The notes below the pieces were generated by a model. It saw nothing but the letters and a program-made list of their open reading frames with translations, ran no database searches and was not told the origin of the DNA. Positions 38,637 to 48,817 of a DNA stretch of 64,000 bases are shown here, one piece after another. Position 1 is the first letter of the stretch. Each line of letters begins with the position of its first letter. The translations under genes were made by a program, and so were the position numbers. Source of the DNA: Escherichia phage D6; the sequence record NC_050154.1. One strand, written 5' to 3'.

Positions 38637-39404
38637 TCACCCCATAGATATCGAGGTTTCGGTAATAATACGTTTTGCGTCCAACTCCCATGCTGTGATC
38701 ACGTCTGCAATCACACTTATCGGCGCTTGTGTGGCATAAATACGCTCTTCTCCAATTGGTGCTGAAACATCCGTAAAGCCGACTTCTTTGGCATCCTGTA
38801 TCGAGCAAATCAGCGGGACCGGGACACGAACAAGGTGAGTGGTTGCTTCAAATTGTGTACCTGTCATCAGGCGAAGCCGTGCGCCCAGCGAATTACACAT
38901 CAGACTCATGGTCGCTTTATCAGTTGCCATTAACGTAACGTCATACGTCAGAATAGCCTGGGTGTATTCCAGTTCTGCTAAAGGCATTCCGGTATCCGGT
39001 TCGCAAAAACTGGCTACTTTTTTGCGGTCAATCTGCTGATCATCGTTGATATAATTGATATCCATAGTGCGTGAGATATTGACCAGGGGGAGAGCATCCC
39101 GGTTAATGTTCTGGTTTTCAGGTTTTCTCCCTTGCCCGGCATTTGCGCGACGAACTGCTTTAAGAAACTCGATCGCATTGTCGAAACGGGCCACATAAAC
39201 ACGCTCTGCTGGTGGACGATTCAGGAATGACGCAAAGCGTTTTTCTTCCGGCGCGGGGGCCACCAGTAAGATATCAGAAAAAATGTTGCTGATTAGCGTC
39301 GCAAACGCGTTATCCACGTTTTCAAAGCCCGTGGTCTGGAATTTTCCTGTGCGTGAGGTTTGCCATTCACCTGTTCGCGCCAGGAGGGTTTTATTTGAAG
39401 TCAT
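38637..39404 (-). CDS. hypothetical protein
   Basis: 255-aa ORF. Confidence 0.5.
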   Translation of the reverse strand: MTSNKTLLARTGEWQTSRTGKFQTTGFENVDNAFATLISNIFSDILLVAPAPEEKRFASFLNRPPAERVYVARFDNAIEFLKAVRRANAGQGRKPENQNINRDALPLVNISRTMDINYINDDQQIDRKKVASFCEPDTGMPLAELEYTQAILTYDVTLMATDKATMSLMCNSLGARLRLMTGTQFEATTHLVRVPVPLICSIQDAKEVGFTDVSAPIGEERIYATQAPISVIADVITAWELDAKRIITETSISMG

Positions 39405-40204
39405 TCGATCACTCCGTTTTGAGTCGTATCAAAATTCCTGGCAGGTATGCAGTAGTAAAGCGAACCAACATGCTGTGTGCCGTAGCTAAAAATACGGTGC
39501 ACGTACCACCAGCGGCGCGCTACGCCGTTTACCATCTCTTCATTCCATTCAAGAATTGAGCCGACGGGGACGTTATTTGCTGCAATACGCAGAATCAGAA
39601 CATCATCGGTTAAGCCATCCTGCTCACCGTCTGCGTCAATCGCATGGAAAGAGTCACGCCCGTCAGGGTTATCCAGCACATAAACGATTTCAGGTTCCTG
39701 GTAAGTCAGTTCGCGTTGGTTGTTATCCAGTTCAGTGAATGACTCTTCTCCTGTTTCGTCGCTGACTACCCCATATGTGCCAACATCTGGTCGATATAAG
39801 AGAGCCTGAAACGCGTCTGGGCTGGATTCAATAATCAGCATCCAGTCTGCGCGGATTTGGTCGTTAAAGGCTTTATGCCCGTTATAGCGTGCTTTTAGCT
39901 GTGGAGTTGATTCTCTGCCAGCCAGGGAAGGTGGAAGTATGGCTATATCTGATTCGCCAGCATCCGGAGTAAGGCCACCGTTGCTATCAGCAAAATTATC
40001 ATGGCTATCAGCTTTGGCGGCGGGTTGCTCTTCCAGAATGCTGAATGAATCCGAACCGGTATTGCCATGTTCCGGCGCGCCTCCTGCATTCACTTCAATC
40101 GGCGCTGGCGTTTCTCTCTGCGTGCTGTCATGTTCTGACTCCTTACTTGCCAGGTTTGCATCGTCAGCAAACCATTCGTCAAAACGGCCCATAAGCATCC
40201 TCAA
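39401..40204 (-). CDS. hypothetical acidic protein
   Basis: 267-aa ORF; an AAATCACAA-type box lies ~40 bp upstream (40242..40257). Confidence 0.5.
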   Translation of the reverse strand: MRMLMGRFDEWFADDANLASKESEHDSTQRETPAPIEVNAGGAPEHGNTGSDSFSILEEQPAAKADSHDNFADSNGGLTPDAGESDIAILPPSLAGRESTPQLKARYNGHKAFNDQIRADWMLIIESSPDAFQALLYRPDVGTYGVVSDETGEESFTELDNNQRELTYQEPEIVYVLDNPDGRDSFHAIDADGEQDGLTDDVLILRIAANNVPVGSILEWNEEMVNGVARRWWYVHRIFSYGTQHVGSLYYCIPARNFDTTQNGVIE

Positions 40205-40354
40205 AGGTCGATCTGTCAGGTATCGAAAGGAAGATTTTCGGGAGATTGTGATTTTGGATGAAGGAGGGGGAATTCATAAAATGCACTTGCGCACAGTGCA
40301 ACGGTGCGCTATAGTTATGGCATTCGGTAATCATCACGGAGGATCAAATGACTA

Positions 40355-40657
40355 ATGACCAAAAAAATTAACATAAAGGATTTCAGGGATGCGTGGCTTG
40401 ATGATTTTTTTGAATTTTCAACACCACATAGAAAGATACCTCCTGATATTCATATGACATTGTCACGGAAGTTGGACATTATCAATGCCGCAACTACCTG
40501 TAAGGATTTAAGATCACCACCAGGTAATCGGTATGAGGAACTGTCAGGGAAGCTAAATGGCTATTCATCAGTAAGGGTGAATAAGCAATATAGGTTAATT
40601 TTTAAGTGGGTTAACGGAAAGGCCGAGGACTTGTATCTCGACCCTCACAAATACTAA
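40355..40657 (+). CDS. higB: HigB-type toxin (RelE/ParE superfamily, plasmid killer)
   Basis: 100 aa, C-terminal YRLIFKWVNGKAEDLYLDPHKY; toxin-first order with an HTH partner. Confidence 0.75.
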   Translation: MTKKINIKDFRDAWLDDFFEFSTPHRKIPPDIHMTLSRKLDIINAATTCKDLRSPPGNRYEELSGKLNGYSSVRVNKQYRLIFKWVNGKAEDLYLDPHKY

Positions 40658-40727
40658 AACAGATACCCGGTTACGGACCGGGTTCTGACCAGAGTCCACT
40701 TAATACGCACGCTAGTAAGGGCAAAAA

Positions 40728-41066
40728 ATGAAACAGGCAACCAGAAAACCGACGACCGTAGGTGATATCCTGCTGTACGAATACCTGGAGCCGTTAGAGC
40801 TGAAGATCAACGAGTTAGCAGAAATACTTCATGTTCATCGTAACACCGTAAGTGCTCTTGTTAATAATAATCGTAAGCTAACGATGGATATGGCATATCG
40901 CCTGGCAAAAGCATTCGATACTTCTGTAGATTTTTGGATTAATCTTCAGACCGCAGTAGATCTGTGGGAAGTCGAAAATGATATGCGCGTTCAGGAAGAG
41001 TTAAGTCGTATCAATACTGCTGAAAAATTTATTTCTCAGCGTAACCTGAATAAAAAAGCAGCCTGA
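40728..41066 (+). CDS. higA: HigA antitoxin (XRE HTH)
   Basis: GDILLYEYLEPLELKINELAEILHVHRNTVSALVNNNRKLTMDMAYRLAKAFDTSVDFWINLQ. Confidence 0.8.
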   Translation: MKQATRKPTTVGDILLYEYLEPLELKINELAEILHVHRNTVSALVNNNRKLTMDMAYRLAKAFDTSVDFWINLQTAVDLWEVENDMRVQEELSRINTAEKFISQRNLNKKAA

Positions 41067-41085
41067 TATAGTAAAACACATACAA

Positions 41086-41110
41086 AAAGCCCACTTAGCA
41101 AGTGGGCTTT
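41086..41110 (+). terminator. intrinsic terminator after higA
   Basis: AAAGCCCACTTAGCAAGTGGGCTTT. Confidence 0.7.
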
Positions 41111-41122
41111 CCTTTGTAATTA

Positions 41123-41482
41123 ATGAACATTAAACCTATCCGTACAGAACAAGATTATGAGGCCGCACTGCGTGCGGTCGAACCGATGTTCGATAACGAA
41201 CCGGAAATGAATACTCCGGAAGGTGATTTCTTTGAGGTTATGAGTCTTCTCATTGAGGAGTACGAGAAGAAACATTACCCAATTGAGCCACCATCACCTA
41301 TTGAGGCCATTAAATTCCGTATGGAACAGCAAGGGCTGACCGTGAAGGATCTGGAACCGGCGATTGGTAAGTCAAATCGTGTTTACGAAGTGCTAAATGG
41401 GACACGAAATTTGACGTTACCTATGATTCGCCGTTTACATTCCCAGTTTGGCATTCCTCTTGAAAGCTTGGTTGGTATTTGA
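41123..41482 (+). CDS. second HigA-like antitoxin-type HTH protein, no adjacent toxin
   Basis: 119 aa; C-terminal HTH IGKSNRVYEVLNGTRNLTLPMIRRLHSQFGIPLESL resembling E. coli HigA-type antitoxins. Confidence 0.65.
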   Translation: MNIKPIRTEQDYEAALRAVEPMFDNEPEMNTPEGDFFEVMSLLIEEYEKKHYPIEPPSPIEAIKFRMEQQGLTVKDLEPAIGKSNRVYEVLNGTRNLTLPMIRRLHSQFGIPLESLVGI

Positions 41483-41544
41483 GTTTGGCGGTCTGGATGA
41501 CCGCTATTTTCATAAAATAGATATTAGAAATCACGGTAGTTTAT

Positions 41545-42273
41545 ATGAATACAGATTCATCAACAGAAAAATTGACTGAAAATGATCTAATCAAAGTATC
41601 TTTTGGAGATGCCATAAAAGACAAGCTTTTTAATAAAGTGTTTGCATATATATTAATTTCTTTTCTAATTATTAATTGGAAAGATATACTAATATTGATG
41701 AAGTCAAAGGATGATATCCTATATACTTTATCTGTAACATTTGTTGGAGGTAAGATTCCTCTAGTTTATGAAGGCGTTTTGTCTCCTTGGCTTTATCATT
41801 TTTGCTTGCCATTTATTTTTGGAATTATTGCATCAATTGCAGCTCCGATTGTCACTCTTTGCGTATCAAAGCTAACAAGTAAAATATATACAGAGATAAG
41901 GTATTTGGATGCCGACATGGATCAAAATAAAAGAAAGGCGTTGCAAATAAAAGAGACTGAAATAATAAAAAGTATTAATGATACACAATTCAACAAAAGA
42001 ATTATGGATGAAAATAAAAATGAACTTGAGAGATTGCTTAGGCAGCAAAAAGAGATTATGGCGGCAATAAAGTTATTATATGATGATGTTGGAGTTATCA
42101 TTGAGCTTTTTAAAAGTAGAGGGGTTGGTATTGACTCCCCAGAAAAGTTATATGATTTTGTAATGGCAATAAAGAAGACTTCGCTTTATAATGGCGATCA
42201 TGATTTTAATAAATTGGTTGCTGATATTTCAAATTTATTTGATAAAACGGAAATTGATTTTTCAAAAAGATGA
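41545..42273 (+). CDS. AT-rich hypothetical membrane protein (2 TM segments plus coiled-coil C-terminus)
   Basis: 242 aa, visibly lower GC than flanks; 62 bp after the orphan HigA-like gene. Confidence 0.65.
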   Translation: MNTDSSTEKLTENDLIKVSFGDAIKDKLFNKVFAYILISFLIINWKDILILMKSKDDILYTLSVTFVGGKIPLVYEGVLSPWLYHFCLPFIFGIIASIAAPIVTLCVSKLTSKIYTEIRYLDADMDQNKRKALQIKETEIIKSINDTQFNKRIMDENKNELERLLRQQKEIMAAIKLLYDDVGVIIELFKSRGVGIDSPEKLYDFVMAIKKTSLYNGDHDFNKLVADISNLFDKTEIDFSKR

Positions 42274-42274
42274 A

Positions 42275-42297
42275 AGCCTAGCCTAGGCAGCTAGGCT
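42275..42297. terminator. hairpin between convergent genes
   Basis: AGCCTAGC...GCTAGGCT palindrome. Confidence 0.5.
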
Positions 42298-42306
42298 ATG
42301 TGTAGT

Positions 42307-43500
42307 TTATGCTTTTTTTACATACTCCATGAACATTTTTTCAGCTTGTGCTGGTGGTGTTCCAGCCATGACAAGCGCATCAATGAACGCCTGCTTCTTC
42401 AGTGCGAACTGATCGGCAAGGCGTTGCTGAAGCTCCTTGTTTTTCTGTTTCTCACGTTGCAAGGCCGCTTCTTTTGCTGCCGCCCGTTTTTTCTGTGCAT
42501 CTGACAACTTTCTGGCCTTGGTCAATTGGTCACGTAGTTTGTCGATCTTGCCGTTGTCCTTTGCCAGTTTTGTACTTAAAGCTGCCTGGCGCTTCTGATA
42601 GAGCCTCCATTCGCGTTTGGCGGCTTCAACGTTCGTTTTACTGCTACGATTGCGATTAAACTCCTTCTCGTCTTCTTTTGAGAAGTGTTTGGTTGTACGG
42701 CGGCGATCGTCACCAAATGCAATTTGCGTTGCAGCCTTTTGTAGCGCACGAGCAATACTCATTTGCCAACTGGCGGACTGTAACCGCGTCATTGAGTGGA
42801 TCACGTGTTTACAGGCGACGCCTTGCAGCTTCGGGTTGCGAACTTTTGGATAGGCGTATTCTTTTGGCGGTGCCAGGGCAAAGTTACCCGCAGTGGCGAT
42901 GTAACGATACCAGTATTGATGACGACCACAGTCACAATCGAAAGACACTCGCCCGGCGCACAGTGATTTAGTGATTTTGAGAGCTGATTTATCGTCTTCT
43001 GCGATGTCATCAACCATCTGATCCCATTCTTCAAAGCGTATCCGGACGATATGGTGCTGGTGGACGGATATATCCGATGCTTCTACGCGGATATTAATCA
43101 CATTGTGGCGAAGAGATACGGGTGTAGCTCTTTTGATACCAGATCCGTCATCCACGGCGTTATTTGCACGCTTAATATCGATTGCCTGGCTGGATGCCAC
43201 CAGCTGGGCGTATGTGATGCCAGCCGTCTTGCTGTCATATTTTTCGCGCGTTTTACTCCGTAGCTTTTCGAAACCTTTCAGGTCGTCTCGCGTGAAGAAC
43301 GTGCCGCCTTTTTTCTTCCCTAACTTGAGAATATCTTCGGCGGATTTGTTCCTCAGTCTACTTGGCGTCAGCGTCCGGTGAGCTTGTCGGCGCTTACGGG
43401 TTTGTTCTTTCCTGATAAGCTCGAATAAACGCGTGAAGTCCTTAGAGGACAGGCCGTCAGTGATATAGCGCCCGTCCTGGTTTTTCAGGAAATCAGGCAT
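42307..43500 (-). CDS. hypothetical protein with SWIM-type zinc finger and Lys/Arg-rich coiled coil
   Basis: 397 aa; CDCGRHQ...GVACKHV (CxC...CxH). Confidence 0.55.
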   Translation of the reverse strand: MPDFLKNQDGRYITDGLSSKDFTRLFELIRKEQTRKRRQAHRTLTPSRLRNKSAEDILKLGKKKGGTFFTRDDLKGFEKLRSKTREKYDSKTAGITYAQLVASSQAIDIKRANNAVDDGSGIKRATPVSLRHNVINIRVEASDISVHQHHIVRIRFEEWDQMVDDIAEDDKSALKITKSLCAGRVSFDCDCGRHQYWYRYIATAGNFALAPPKEYAYPKVRNPKLQGVACKHVIHSMTRLQSASWQMSIARALQKAATQIAFGDDRRRTTKHFSKEDEKEFNRNRSSKTNVEAAKREWRLYQKRQAALSTKLAKDNGKIDKLRDQLTKARKLSDAQKKRAAAKEAALQREKQKNKELQQRLADQFALKKQAFIDALVMAGTPPAQAEKMFMEYVKKA

Positions 43501-43822: not shown

Positions 43823-44015
43823 AACAAAGCCTCTCAGTCATAACCTGGGGGAAACTGTATGCAGGGTGTGAAATGCGAGAAACAGACAGGCCACCAGTTC
43901 AGGGGGATGTGGTTCATAAATCCCCTCACTGGTGACAAGTGACTTTCATTAATCTTTATGCGTGGGCCAGCTTCATTTGCTGGCATTAGATTAAAAATTA
44001 AACGGAGTGAATGAC

Positions 44016-44150
44016 ATGGATGTTATCTTCGAATTATTAATGCTAATTGATCTGTTTATGAACGCTTCATTGACCACGCAAATACTGGCGTCAATATTTT
44101 TGTTACTCTTCTACCTGGTATTGAGGGAGTTAACAAAGCTACTAATGTGA
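44016..44150 (+). CDS. small hydrophobic peptide (44 aa)
   Basis: Own translation MDVIFELLMLIDLFMNASLTTQILASIFLLLFYLVLRELTKLLM with GGAG RBS; not in ORF track. Confidence 0.35.
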   Translation: MDVIFELLMLIDLFMNASLTTQILASIFLLLFYLVLRELTKLLM

Positions 44151-44963: not shown

Positions 44964-45149
44964 AAAATAGTGTCAACCACTTTTTGTGGATTTTATTTTT
45001 TGACAGAAATTTGGCCTAAATCATGTTGATTTGGCTGATTATTTTTATAACATAAAAGTCATTTTGATTGCATGAAGGACGGTGCAGTGAAGTTAATGGT
45101 TTTAGGGACCGCGCTCGCGGCTAAGATGGTAAGGTATGGAGTTAATGAA

Positions 45150-45983
45150 ATGTTTTTTATAAAAAATGGAAAAAGATTTTCCTCAACAATACTAGCTACT
45201 GTTGTTGCTCTTTTTGTTCCCACACTCACCTTTGCTTATGATTTTAGCAAAATTGACTGCAATTCCCCTAAAACTAGGCAGATGTTAATCGATGATTATA
45301 ATGAACTGCTGAAGGACGAGCAGGAAGCAATCTCTGTAATTGATGCTTATAATCAGATCAATGAGATAAGAGAAAACAATAAGCTCCAATGCCTGGGAAC
45401 GTATGAATTCTCAGATGGAAGTGCGCTTAGGGTTAGATATAAGTTATATTTAAATAGCCTCGGCACACCCATATATGAATTTGCTCCAGTTGAGGAATTA
45501 ACGCAAGATGATGTAAGCGCATCTATTCATAATTCCCCTGCAACTCCTGCAAGCATGGCTGGACATGATAAAAAAAATAATGGTGAAACGTATGCCTGTA
45601 AGGTGGCTGTAACTTACAAGGGGGAGCGTTCTAACTATATGGGGGATTCCGGAACATGGGATCGTGTGATTACTGACTATGGCACTTATTTTTCATGGGA
45701 TTTGCCACGCGGAAACCGAGGCAACAGCACAGGTCAGGATGCTTTTAGTGGCATGGACGAATCAAAGCCTGTATTAGAAAATCAGCTAGTGAGAAAGGAA
45801 ACTGAAAAAGATGGTAGCGTGGTTGATGAATTTAGGACTGATGTAAGTTATGGGGAAAAACAACCAGTTCATAAGTTTGTATATGCTCGTAGAATAAAAC
45901 CTACAGGCATGAGAGAGTATTATGTTACGGATTTAACAGACAAGCGGGCGTTTATGTTTCTGAATTGTCAGAGAGATTCGTGA
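45150..45983 (+). CDS. hypothetical secreted/periplasmic protein
   Basis: Signal peptide MFFIKNGKRFSSTILATVVALFVPTLTFA; moderately AT-rich; start moved to the RBS-supported ATG. Confidence 0.6.
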   Translation: MFFIKNGKRFSSTILATVVALFVPTLTFAYDFSKIDCNSPKTRQMLIDDYNELLKDEQEAISVIDAYNQINEIRENNKLQCLGTYEFSDGSALRVRYKLYLNSLGTPIYEFAPVEELTQDDVSASIHNSPATPASMAGHDKKNNGETYACKVAVTYKGERSNYMGDSGTWDRVITDYGTYFSWDLPRGNRGNSTGQDAFSGMDESKPVLENQLVRKETEKDGSVVDEFRTDVSYGEKQPVHKFVYARRIKPTGMREYYVTDLTDKRAFMFLNCQRDS

Positions 45984-48019: not shown

Positions 48020-48079
48020 ATTGGCAGCCTCCTTTTGCTAATTTAAGGAGCTACCGCGTGAGGTCTCAATCTCAATGGC

Positions 48080-48155
48080 GGTAGCACTGGCTGGGTTGAG
48101 ACTACCGGCGCAAAAGGGAACCGGCCTGCCTTTCGGCAGCCCAGCCAGCACTACC
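48080..48155 (-). ncRNA. candidate c4-type antisense regulatory RNA (~76 nt)
   Basis: 16-bp closing stem with two G-U pairs enclosing a GAAA-looped hairpin; a loop GUCUCAA is complementary to two UUGAGAC sites, one just before the icd-like RBS. Confidence 0.4.
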
Positions 48156-48206
48156 ATTGATCTTGGAGCTATACGCTACGTATGGCTGTGCGATGGCATG
48201 ACACAA

Positions 48207-48228
48207 AAAAAGACGCTTTCGGCGTCTG
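48207..48228 (-). terminator. intrinsic terminator upstream of the c4-like RNA
   Basis: Minus strand GACGCCGAAAGCGTC followed by TTTTTTT. Confidence 0.6.
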
Positions 48229-48817
48229 TGTCGCCTTTTGCATTATCCGGGGTCTCAATCCCGGCACCCGTTTTTCTAAGGTGCCGTAGAAATATACCCC
48301 ACGATAATGCCAGGGCGCAACAGTCAGTATTTTATGCTTTGGCGGATTTCTTCCGGGCTTGCTTGCAGGCGTAGGCCATTGCTTTAGCTTTCACTTCATC
48401 CAGCTTCCCGGTGATCACTTCTTTTCCGAGAGTGACAAACCAGTCATAGCAACCGCCAGTGATGTTCTGGATTTGAAAGTTGAGGTAGCGAACTGTCATT
48501 TTGACCCCCCCAGCGCGAGTAAAGAATGCAGATTATCGCGTGAGTGGCGGACAACGAGTGATGGGAAAAGACAGTAGCTGTTCATAGTGTAGTGACTCCT
48601 TGCTTTCGGAGCCGCCATCGACTGTTCCACGGTCTGGTGGCGGCGCAATAAAGGCTGGAACACCGTGAGTCAACGGGGGCTTTTCAGCCACCTATATTGC
48701 ACCGCCATAGGTATAGCGGCGGCAATAATACGAAAAACTAAACAGTTTGTCTCAAAAAGTTGACCGGTGTGCCAATCGGTAGTGAATGTACATCGGAGAA
48801 ATTTACAATTCAACTTA

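What the first reader, a model, noticed from the sequence alone, without database searches (positions are those of the whole stretch)
41123..42273. Orphan HigA-like antitoxin gene followed by an AT-rich two-TM coiled-coil protein: candidate novel TA or abortive-infection pair
A complete higB-higA pair with its own terminator ends at ~41110. Straight after it comes a second, different HigA-type HTH protein (119 aa) with no toxin upstream, then 62 bp later a 242-aa ORF of clearly lower GC with two TM helices and a long coiled-coil tail. I recognise no toxin or defense domain in that protein. Antitoxin-first order with a membrane effector is typical of membrane-depolarising TA or Abi modules, and the compositional break suggests separate acquisition.
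Basis: partly seen in the sequence, partly recalled or inferred. Interest (0 to 1): 0.7.

Follow-up and report, generated by a model that had tools for sequence, protein, structure and literature searches.

The report
Orphaned HigA beside independent membrane-protein moron
The two genes are real but are not a toxin-antitoxin pair: the HTH gene is an antitoxin that lost its own toxin gene through a module swap, and the membrane-protein gene is a separately inserted, uncharacterised accessory gene of P1-like phage-plasmids that may act in phage exclusion or defence.

Summary
After a complete higB-higA pair and a hairpin come a 119-aa HTH gene (41123-41482) and, 62 nt later, a low-GC 242-aa two-TM/long-helix ORF (41545-42273, here called X). 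The pair interpretation is not supported.

The window is a P1-related phage-plasmid. The island lies on the opposite strand inside the late tail operon, between homologues of P1 genes 25 and 7.

The 119-aa protein is an E. coli K-12-type HigA. In 19 sister plasmids the same gene follows a PF09907 HigB by 4 nt, with two operator palindromes. In the window that toxin and promoter were replaced by an unrelated Rts1-type higBA.

X is a discrete 807-bp cassette behind a terminator-like hairpin. It is absent from 16 sister plasmids that keep higA119. It is intact where higA119 carries a nonsense codon, a frameshift or an HTH deletion (51 genomes, the largest class scored).

Distant X homologues have no HigA nearby. 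They lie in P2-like prophage tail regions, next to PD-T7-4-like and ATPase/methylase genes, or behind TacAT modules.

X belongs to a rare family with no recognisable domain or fold. Most likely it is a stand-alone prophage moron acting at the inner membrane in phage exclusion or abortive infection. This is untested.

The parts
39401..40204 (-). Left flank: tail gene, by position the homologue of P1 gene 7 (phrog_1906)
   Evidence: Homology with every sister plasmid compared runs through this gene.
40255..41115 (+). Swapped-in module: Rts1-type higBA with its promoter region and hairpin. It replaces the K-12-type higB and its operators found in L027-type plasmids.
   Evidence: blastn breakpoints against L027: homology ends at 40254 and resumes at 41116.
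40355..40657 (+). higB, RelE-fold toxin of the PF05015 (Rts1/Vibrio) type
   Evidence: PF05015 E 4.4e-35; phrog_3066 E 4e-37.
40728..41066 (+). higA, cognate antitoxin of the PF05015-type toxin
   Evidence: TIGR02607 E 7.9e-30; PF01381 E 7e-11.
41086..41110 (.). Terminator-like hairpin after higA, scored on both strands
   Evidence: -17.9 kcal/mol, z -4.8.
41123..41482 (+). higA119: orphaned E. coli K-12-type (YgjM-like) HigA antitoxin, with an N-terminal toxin-binding domain and a C-terminal HTH
   Evidence: PDB 5IFG_B/5YCL_A HigA, E 8e-8, over aa 6-112. PADLOC PD-Lambda-2_B positions 1-119, E 4e-43. Preceded by a PF09907 HigB in L027-L029, L031 and L033. pN/pS 0.00-0.18.
41486..41506 (+). 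Terminator-like hairpin followed by a TTTT run, between higA119 and X. It also marks the left edge of the X cassette.
   Evidence: -16.6 kcal/mol, z -5.3. Homology with no-X plasmids ends at 41504.
41505..42311 (+). X cassette: an 807-bp low-GC insertion, represented by 20 bp in plasmids that lack it
   Evidence: blastn against L005; GC 0.29-0.32.
41545..42273 (+). X: a 242-aa predicted inner-membrane protein. It has an N-terminal amphipathic helix, TM1 (invariant N44-W45), a short loop helix, TM2 running into a ~85-residue helix, and a small variable C-terminal helical domain. Family phrog_8191, function unknown.
42275..42298 (.). Hairpin after X, facing the 3' end of the convergent tail gene
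   Evidence: weak by folding energy (-14.9 kcal/mol, z -2.0).
42307..43500 (-). Right flank: tail gene, homologue of P1 gene 25 (57% aa identity)

Best explanation
The region is a mosaic accessory island. It is inserted on the opposite strand inside the late tail operon of a P1-related phage-plasmid, between the homologues of P1 genes 25 and 7. It holds three independent units.

1. A complete Rts1/PF05015-type higBA addiction module.

2. higA119, a K-12-type HigA antitoxin. Its own toxin gene (a PF09907 HigB) and its operator-bearing promoter were replaced by unit 1, in a recombination event that ended 7 nt before the higA119 start codon. It is therefore an orphaned antitoxin. Where intact, it is kept under purifying selection. 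Inferred role: neutralising the matching HigB of rival P1-like plasmids (anti-addiction), or of HigB-based defence systems. Several lineages are losing it.

3. X, a self-contained moron cassette of low GC, bounded by hairpins and present or absent as an indel. It encodes a predicted inner-membrane protein with both termini in the cytoplasm, two TM helices, a long cytoplasmic helical stalk and a small variable C-terminal domain.

Inferred mechanism for X: it is expressed from the plasmid prophage and acts alone at the inner membrane in conflict with other phages or mobile elements. It either blocks DNA entry (superinfection exclusion) or acts as a sensor-effector that compromises the membrane on infection (abortive infection). 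In this reading the conserved membrane part is the working part, and the fast-changing loop and C-terminal domain set specificity.

Shown here: the gene identities, the module swap, the indel boundaries, the independent assortment, and the neighbourhoods of relatives. Inferred only: the expression of X, its topology, and any exclusion or defence activity.
For: Element and slot:
- C4 antisense RNA is present.
- The gp25 homologue is 57% identical to P1 gp25. In P1, gene 7 starts 3 nt after gene 25.

higA119:
- It is homologous to solved E. coli HigA across both domains.
- The same gene (97-98% aa identity) follows a PF09907 HigB by 4 nt in L027-L029, L031 and L033. Those loci have two TCCCR-N3-TGGGA palindromes around a promoter.
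- The breakpoints are at 40254 and 41116.
- The operator is absent from the window: 7 one-mismatch sites against 5.7 expected.
- The family is widespread, and where annotated it usually sits beside a HigB-family toxin.
- pN/pS is 0.00-0.18.

X as an independent unit:
- It is an 807-bp indel with a GC drop and hairpins on both sides.
- Sixteen E. coli genomes have the no-X junction. Fifty-one have an intact X next to an HTH-deleted higA119 stub. Nonsense and frameshift alleles also occur with X intact.
- X alleles are 37-59% identical inside flanks that are 93-99% identical.
- Conservation profile: the membrane part is conserved (0.5-0.6 identity), while the loop and C-terminus are variable (0.13-0.29).

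Conflict-type neighbourhoods of relatives:
- A lone opposite-strand gene between tail genes V and S of P2-like prophages.
- 12 nt downstream of a PD-T7-4-like gene on a resolvase-flanked element.
- Beside a HEC-04/AriA/PtuA-like ATPase plus a type II methyltransferase.
- Behind TacA-GNAT TA modules, with a canonical terminator between in L045.
- Next to a phage integrase.

Precedent: HK97 gp15 is a tail-operon moron that encodes an inner-membrane exclusion protein (PMC3594210). P22 SieA is another inner-membrane exclusion protein (PMC10883804).
Against: - There is no functional data of any kind for X or its family.
- No convincing sigma-70 promoter was found in the 38 nt between the hairpin and the X start codon. 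Expression may depend on read-through.
- No homology or fold match to any known exclusion, Abi or pore protein was found.
- Neighbourhood association is circumstantial, because accessory slots also hold non-defence cargo.
- X lies directly downstream of a TA operon in three different TA settings. That could reflect functional coupling rather than shared cargo space.
- The low pN/pS of higA119 could be inherited from toxin-linked copies through recombination, rather than reflecting selection on the orphan.
Confidence: 0.6

Rival explanations
1. One reading: higA119 and X form an antitoxin-first two-gene TA or Abi module. The HTH protein neutralises or represses a toxic membrane effector.
For: The genes are adjacent and co-directional with a 62-nt gap. 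A HigA-type protein has no toxin in the window. X is membrane-embedded and of unknown function.
Against: - higA119 has a different cognate partner in sister plasmids, a PF09907 HigB 4 nt upstream.
- X is intact with higA119 inactivated in three independent ways. The HTH-deleted form is the largest class scored, at 51 genomes.
- higA119 occurs without X.
- Distant X homologues lack any HigA.
- A hairpin lies between the genes.
- No operator is present.
Confidence: 0.04
2. X is the third component of a tripartite TA-based system. It works together with the upstream TA module: originally the K-12-type HigBA, elsewhere TacAT. It could act as a membrane sensor or anchor that controls toxin release during phage infection. 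This would parallel three-gene TA-derived defence systems such as PD-lambda-2 or CmdTAC.
For: - HigB-HigA-X occurs in two deeply diverged versions. HigB is 25%, HigA 29% and X 33% identical, while the flanking tail proteins are 68-82% identical.
- The 139-aa version moved as a three-gene block onto Klebsiella IncFIB plasmids without any tail genes.
- X also follows TacA-GNAT pairs.
- Three-gene TA-derived defence systems exist (PMC9519451).
Against: - A terminator-like hairpin lies between the TA operon and X in every case inspected.
- X survives replacement of the HigB toxin by an unrelated TA (the window) and inactivation of HigA.
- X occurs with no TA module next to it in P2-like prophages, in a chromosome, and beside PD-T7-4-like and methylase genes.
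- On the Klebsiella plasmids X is truncated by IS elements while higBA stays intact.
Confidence: 0.13
3. HigA119 has been retained as a transcription factor that controls X or another gene of the phage-plasmid, rather than as an antitoxin.
For: Where intact, the ORF is under purifying selection. It keeps a complete HTH. One single-mismatch operator-like site lies at 41441-41453, about 90 nt upstream of X.
Against: - Exact operators occur only in the higB promoters of L027-type loci.
- Window matches are at chance level (7 against 5.7 expected). The one near X lies inside the higA119 coding sequence and upstream of the hairpin.
- X is kept where the HTH domain is deleted.
Confidence: 0.06
4. 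X is a moron unrelated to phage conflict. It could be a membrane protein that modifies host envelope physiology, plasmid maintenance or lysis timing.
For: There is no similarity to any defence family. Morons have many roles (PMC3594210). One homologue is a lone chromosomal gene in Enterobacter sp. among housekeeping-type genes.
Against: - Rapid allelic turnover is concentrated in the loop and C-terminal domain.
- X recurs in slots shared with TA, restriction-modification-like and defence-like genes on several element types.
Confidence: 0.17

Closest known systems
E. coli K-12 HigB-HigA (YgjN-YgjM; PDB 5IFG, 5YCL; toxin family PF09907)
   Same: higA119 aligns with solved HigA over both the N-terminal domain and the HTH (E 8e-8). 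In sister plasmids it sits 4 nt after a PF09907 HigB and behind paired palindromic operators.
   Different: It is 119 aa rather than 138 aa, lacking about the first 18 residues. In the window it has no toxin gene and no operator, and it starts 12 nt after a hairpin with no obvious promoter or Shine-Dalgarno sequence.
PD-lambda-2 (Vassallo et al. 2022, PMC9519451): HigB-like A, HigA-like-peptidase fusion B, P4-antitoxin-like C
   Same: higA119 matches positions 1-119 of the PD-Lambda-2_B model at E 4e-43. It also belongs ancestrally to a three-gene HigB/HigA/third-gene layout.
   Different: There is no peptidase domain (119 aa against a 402-position model). The window has no K-12-type HigB. The third gene is a membrane protein, not a P4-antitoxin-like protein. 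No PADLOC hit was found for X.
Orphan antitoxins as anti-addiction or counter-defence elements (PMC2654758; bioRxiv 10.1101/2024.07.11.602962)
   Same: It is an antitoxin gene kept without its toxin on a mobile element. That element competes with close relatives carrying the matching toxin (19 E. coli plasmids).
   Different: No neutralisation has been shown here. Several lineages have lost the gene's function.
HK97 gp15 and P22 SieA (prophage-encoded inner-membrane superinfection-exclusion proteins; PMC3594210, PMC10883804)
   Same: X is an insertion of deviant GC content in the tail-gene region, absent from relatives, and encodes a predicted inner-membrane protein. Divergent alleles occupy one slot, as with the three SieA sequence types that are under 30% identical to each other.
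   Different: No annotated exclusion family was detected in the Pfam, PHROGs or PADLOC scans; gp15 and SieA themselves were not compared directly. X is larger (242 aa) and has a long cytoplasmic helix plus a C-terminal domain. It lies on the opposite strand to the tail operon. Its function is untested.
Tetrameric cation-channel pore domains (NaK, MthK, Kv)
   Same: Both have a helix, short re-entrant helix, loop, helix layout. These domains fill the top of the Foldseek PDB list.
   Different: All hits have E above 1, probability at most 0.18 and TM-score at most 0.33. The 'VGG' after the short helix is not conserved in the wider family. This is a lead only.

Membership tests
Type II TA, HigBA of the Rts1/PF05015 type (genes 40355-41066) | RelE-fold HigB-like toxin domain | tested here: met
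   PF05015 E 4.4e-35, covering the full model.
Type II TA, HigBA of the Rts1/PF05015 type (genes 40355-41066) | HigA antidote with an HTH, encoded directly downstream of the toxin | tested here: met
   TIGR02607 scores 102.5 bits against a cutoff of 47.7. The gap is 70 nt on the same strand.
Type II TA, HigBA of the Rts1/PF05015 type (genes 40355-41066) | Toxicity that is neutralised by the antitoxin | not testable with these tools
   Needs expression assays.
K-12-type HigA antitoxin (YgjM family), for the 119-aa protein | Homology to HigA across the toxin-binding N-domain and the HTH | tested here: met
   5IFG_B and 5YCL_A, E 8e-8, query aa 6-112. 29% identity to the 139-aa HigA of L009.
K-12-type HigA antitoxin (YgjM family), for the 119-aa protein | Cognate PF09907 HigB encoded immediately upstream | tested here: not met
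   None in the window. Present in sister loci L027-L029, L031 and L033, with PF09907 at E 2e-34 in L027. So it is a family member that has been orphaned.
K-12-type HigA antitoxin (YgjM family), for the 119-aa protein | Autoregulatory palindromic operators in its promoter | tested here: not met
   TCCCR-N3-TGGGA occurs twice in L027-type promoters only. The window has no exact site.
   Each occurs intact without the other. Distant X homologues have no HigA.
   A hairpin plus T-run lies between the genes. No clear promoter for either gene was found. RNA data are needed.
   Indirectly unlikely, since X persists without a functional HigA119.
PD-lambda-2 defence system | B component: a HigA-like Xre domain fused to a C-terminal peptidase | tested here: not met
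   Only model positions 1-119 of 402 are matched. The protein ends at aa 119.
PD-lambda-2 defence system | A component (HigB-like) and C component (P4-antitoxin-like) adjacent | tested here: not met
   No PADLOC PD-Lambda-2 A or C hits for the neighbouring genes. No K-12-type HigB in the window.
Moron (as defined in PMC3594210) | Extra DNA relative to related genomes, with different GC content | tested here: met
   An 807-bp indel against L005 and L006. GC about 0.30 against about 0.48. The slot is empty in P1.
Moron (as defined in PMC3594210) | Own promoter and terminator, and expression from the repressed prophage | tested here: inconclusive
   A downstream hairpin is present but weak (z -2.0). 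No sigma-70 match of at least 9 of 12 lies upstream of X. Expression is not testable here.
Known exclusion, Abi or membrane-effector families (Pfam, PHROGs-annotated, PADLOC, including SLATT and 2TM effectors) | Sequence or fold similarity | tested here: not met

The most novel reading that the evidence does not exclude
X founds a new single-gene, membrane-acting anti-phage or exclusion family carried by phage-plasmids and prophages. Its conserved two-TM module (invariant Asn-Trp in TM1, prolines in TM2) would oligomerise into a pore or an injection block, and its variable cytoplasmic domain would set specificity. In parallel, the orphaned HigA119 would be an active decoy antitoxin. It would protect its phage-plasmid from the K-12-type HigB toxins of rival P1-like plasmids, or from PD-lambda-2-like host defences.
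Probability: 0.2. Interest if true: 0.6.

Novelty: new member of a known kind. Interest (0 to 1): 0.35.

Why it matters
If X excludes phages or aborts infection, it would add a small, previously unannotated family to the prophage-encoded defence repertoire: 56 clusters at 50% identity among 1.84 billion proteins. It would also mark the gene 25/7 junction of P1-related phage-plasmids as a cargo hotspot comparable to those of P2 and P4.

The locus is also a clean natural example of how orphan antitoxins arise. Here one TA module replaced only the toxin half of another. It allows a direct test of the anti-addiction idea between competing, near-identical plasmids.

For annotation, it is a warning that an HTH gene followed by an unknown membrane gene should not be read as a TA pair without comparative checks.

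Tried and rejected
- **Domain scans.** The 242-aa protein and 44 family members were scanned against Pfam, NCBIfam and PADLOC. The window protein has no hit. The members give coiled-coil-type hits only, apart from one isolated weak hit to a PADLOC 2TM effector model. PHROGs gives phrog_8191, function unknown.
- **Channel-pore lead.** Rejected as evidence: E above 1, and the putative filter motif is not conserved.
- **Phage collection.** No megablast or tblastn match to the island or to X.
- **The search for related loci with the 44-sequence alignment.** Failed because no stretch was conserved enough. It was repeated with 12 sequences.
- **Second word-indexed homologue search.** Added little.
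- **HigA119 operator near X.** Only chance-level one-mismatch sites.
- **RNA partner in the island.** Nothing above noise.
- **Literature search by protein accession.** No paper found.
- **Short contigs.** Three context look-ups returned contigs too short to be informative.
Full report
**1. What is at the coordinates**

- higB, 40355-40657: PF05015, E 4e-35.
- higA, 40728-41066: TIGR02607, E 8e-30.
- A strong hairpin at 41086-41110: -17.9 kcal/mol, z -4.8.
- A 119-aa HTH ORF, 41123-41482.
- A 62-nt spacer.
- A 242-aa ORF, 41545-42273, here called X.

GC falls from about 0.48 to 0.29-0.32 across X. X has two hydrophobic segments, at about aa 32-50 and 90-108. A 44-sequence AlphaFold model (pLDDT 85.8) shows N-terminal helices, a helix/short-helix/helix membrane unit, one continuous helix from aa 81 to 191, and a small C-terminal helical domain.

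**2. The element and the slot**

The island matches E. coli plasmids of about 90 kb only: 95 of 5,426 complete genomes, and none on a chromosome. The window carries a C4 antisense RNA of the P1 immI type.

The flanking minus-strand genes are tail genes. The right one is 57% identical to P1 gp25. In P1 itself, gene 7 starts 3 nt after gene 25 within the operon 26-25-7-24-6-5. The 2.1-kb island is therefore an opposite-strand insertion inside a late tail operon, in a P1-related lineage distinct from P1 itself. The phage collection has no DNA-level match.

**3. The 119-aa protein is an orphaned K-12-type HigA**

It aligns with the solved E. coli HigA (5IFG, 5YCL) over both the N-terminal domain and the HTH (E 8e-8). 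It matches positions 1-119 of the PADLOC model for PD-lambda-2B at E 4e-43. According to PMC9519451, that protein is a HigA-like Xre domain fused to a peptidase.

Its only similarity to the upstream HigA is a weak local HTH alignment. Its family is widespread on plasmids of many genera, and where annotated it usually sits next to a HigB-family toxin.

The decisive evidence comes from sister plasmids.
- At the same slot in L027-L029, L031 and L033, the same gene (97-98% aa identity) is preceded by a 100-aa HigB. In L027 that HigB matches PF09907 at E 2e-34 and ends 4 nt before the higA119 start.
- Upstream of that HigB are two TCCCR-N3-TGGGA palindromes around a -35/-10 pair.
- Nineteen complete E. 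coli genomes carry that cognate pair.

Alignment of the window with L027 loses homology at 40254 and regains it at 41116, which is 7 nt before the higA119 ATG. So the Rts1-type higBA with its hairpin replaced the cognate toxin and promoter. The window has no K-12-type HigB. It has no exact operator, and one-mismatch sites are at chance level, 7 found against 5.7 expected. Exact operators occur only in the five cognate-pair loci.

Where intact, higA119 shows pN/pS of 0.00-0.18, including between orphan copies. That suggests function. Recombination with toxin-linked copies could produce the same signal, so this point is not settled.

**4. X is an independent cassette**

Against plasmids that lack X (L005, L006), homology runs to 41504, the end of the hairpin, and resumes at 42312, inside the stop codon (42307-42309) of the convergent tail gene. 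That makes 807 bp in the window against 20 bp in those plasmids.

Other plasmids carry X alleles that are only 37-59% identical, within flanks that are 93-99% identical. The membrane part is conserved and the periplasmic loop and C-terminal half are variable.

X stays intact where higA119 is disrupted in three independent ways:
- a stop at codon 69 (L002, L026);
- a frameshift (L030);
- deletion of the whole HTH domain, leaving a 66-aa stub (L010 and nine viral contigs).

Junction-specific probes in complete E. coli genomes give this census.

| Arrangement | Genomes |
|---|---|
| higA119 stub + X | 51 |
| Intact higA119, no X | 16 |
| The window's exact arrangement | 4 |

The two genes therefore assort independently, and the largest class scored has X without an HTH. 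This rules out HigA119 as a required antitoxin or repressor for X.

**5. The X family and where it lives**

An exhaustive profile search found only 56 cluster representatives at E ≤ 1e-3 among 1.84 billion proteins. N44 and P89 are invariant across the family, and W45 and P101 nearly so. No member matches a named Pfam or PADLOC family beyond coiled-coil noise, apart from one isolated weak hit to a PADLOC 2TM effector model. Fold searches are not significant. The recurrent cation-channel pore hits (E above 1) reflect topology only.

Contexts of relatives:

| Context | Loci |
|---|---|
| PF09907 HigB, 139-aa HigA, then X, at the same P1-type slot in Enterobacter | L009, L032, L047 |
| The same three genes moved without tail genes onto Klebsiella IncFIB plasmids, where IS elements then truncated X | L007, L011 |
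| TacA-GNAT toxin, then X, with a canonical terminator between in L045 and two X alleles in the slot | L045, L048, L049 |
| A lone opposite-strand gene between tail genes V and S of P2-like prophages | L039-L042 |
| 12 nt after a PD-T7-4-like gene on a resolvase-flanked element | L043 |
| Beside a HEC-04/AriA/PtuA-like ATPase and a type II methyltransferase | L035 |
| In a methylase/H-NS island | L036-L038 |
| In a phage next to a Dcm/Dam methylase | L046 |
| Next to an integrase | L052, L053 |
| Alone in an Enterobacter chromosome | L012 |

The common denominator is accessory cargo space of phages and plasmids, shared with TA, restriction-modification-like and defence-like genes. It is not a HigA partner.

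**6. Mechanism**

Shown: gene identities, the module swap, the indel boundaries, independent assortment, and the neighbourhoods.

Inferred for X:
- The lysine and arginine distribution around the TM segments suggests both termini are cytoplasmic, with a short periplasmic loop.
- The conserved membrane module, with a polar Asn in TM1, would be the working part. The variable loop and C-terminal domain would set specificity.
- The most likely role is a single-protein exclusion or abortive-infection function expressed from the plasmid prophage. This is by analogy with HK97 gp15, a tail-operon moron encoding an inner-membrane exclusion protein (PMC3594210), and with P22 SieA (PMC10883804).
- I cannot choose between blocking DNA entry and infection-triggered membrane damage.
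- X persists without any linked antitoxin, so it is probably not constitutively toxic.

Inferred for HigA119: it is an anti-addiction or counter-defence decoy against the matching HigB (concepts in PMC2654758 and bioRxiv 10.1101/2024.07.11.602962), and it is decaying in several lineages.

**7. Rivals**

- A tripartite TA-plus-X system keeps some weight (0.13). The three genes have diverged in parallel between two versions, moved together to Klebsiella plasmids, and X recurs behind TacAT. Against it are the terminators, the TA-free contexts, and the survival of X after toxin replacement and HigA loss.
- HigA119 as a regulator of X is unlikely (0.06).
- A non-conflict moron role remains possible (0.17).

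**8. Verdict**

The TA parts belong to known families. The orphaning event is a tidy but ordinary example of TA module shuffling. X is an uncharacterised member of a known kind of element, the prophage moron in a cargo hotspot, and its candidate conflict function is untested. Interest is moderate to low (0.35). It would rise to about 0.6 if X proves to be a new single-gene membrane defence or exclusion family and the orphan proves to be an active decoy.

Noticed in passing
window 48074-48161 (-) and 48206-48284 (-): C4 antisense RNA (RF01695, 76 bits) and isrK (RF01394, 59 bits) lie side by side. This is the signature of a P1/P7-type immI immunity region and confirms the kind of element.
   Followed up: no
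window 40205-42306, relative to P1 AF234172 76847-78068 (L054): The whole island sits on the opposite strand inside the homologue of the P1 late tail operon 26-25-7-24-6-5. In P1, gene 7 starts 3 nt after gene 25. The island carries hairpins that score as terminators on both strands (41084-41112, 42275-42298). It is unclear how late transcription reaches the genes downstream of the island.
   Followed up: partly
window 43823-44150, between the 109-aa baseplate gene and mat; compare L002 7601-8172, L004 7670-8241, L005 6992-8314: This is a second variable slot. Sister plasmids carry a further RelE/ParE-HigA pair or a TnpB insertion here. The window has only about 330 bp.
   Followed up: no
window 45072-45983 (+): A low-GC (about 0.35-0.39) 303-aa ORF of unknown function (phrog_13054, E 2e-192) with a hydrophobic N-terminal segment. 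Sister plasmids carry different genes at this position, so this is probably another cargo slot.
   Followed up: no
L007 3171-4381 and L011 3171-4165 (Klebsiella IncFIB plasmids): The HigB(PF09907)-HigA(139 aa)-X block occurs on large Klebsiella plasmids without any phage tail genes. It is flanked by IS66, and X is truncated by IS903B or ISKpn26. About 55 PLSDB records show this.
   Followed up: partly
L045 3462-5120; L048 and L049 2781-4714: A TacA-GNAT toxin pair is followed by X homologues from two different 50%-identity clusters. In L048/L049 the contigs are 66-95 kb and also encode an SLT-domain protein (L048) and a ParA/MipZ-like protein. This may be another phage-plasmid type with its own X slot.
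   Followed up: partly
L010 3773-3973 and nine viral contigs (L014-L021, L034): The 66-aa N-terminal stub of HigA119 stays an open frame in the largest arrangement class scored, and it corresponds to its own PHROG family (phrog_10398, 66 positions, E 4e-40). The N-terminal domain is the toxin-binding part in K-12 HigA, according to the literature as I recall it. The stub might therefore still neutralise a HigB without binding DNA.
   Followed up: no
window 41545-42273 (model m13ab4f13030c): The top 40 or so Foldseek PDB hits are nearly all pore domains of tetrameric cation channels (NaK, MthK, Kv, K2P). All have E above 1 and probability at most 0.18. The match is a shared topology, not a significant similarity.
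   Followed up: partly
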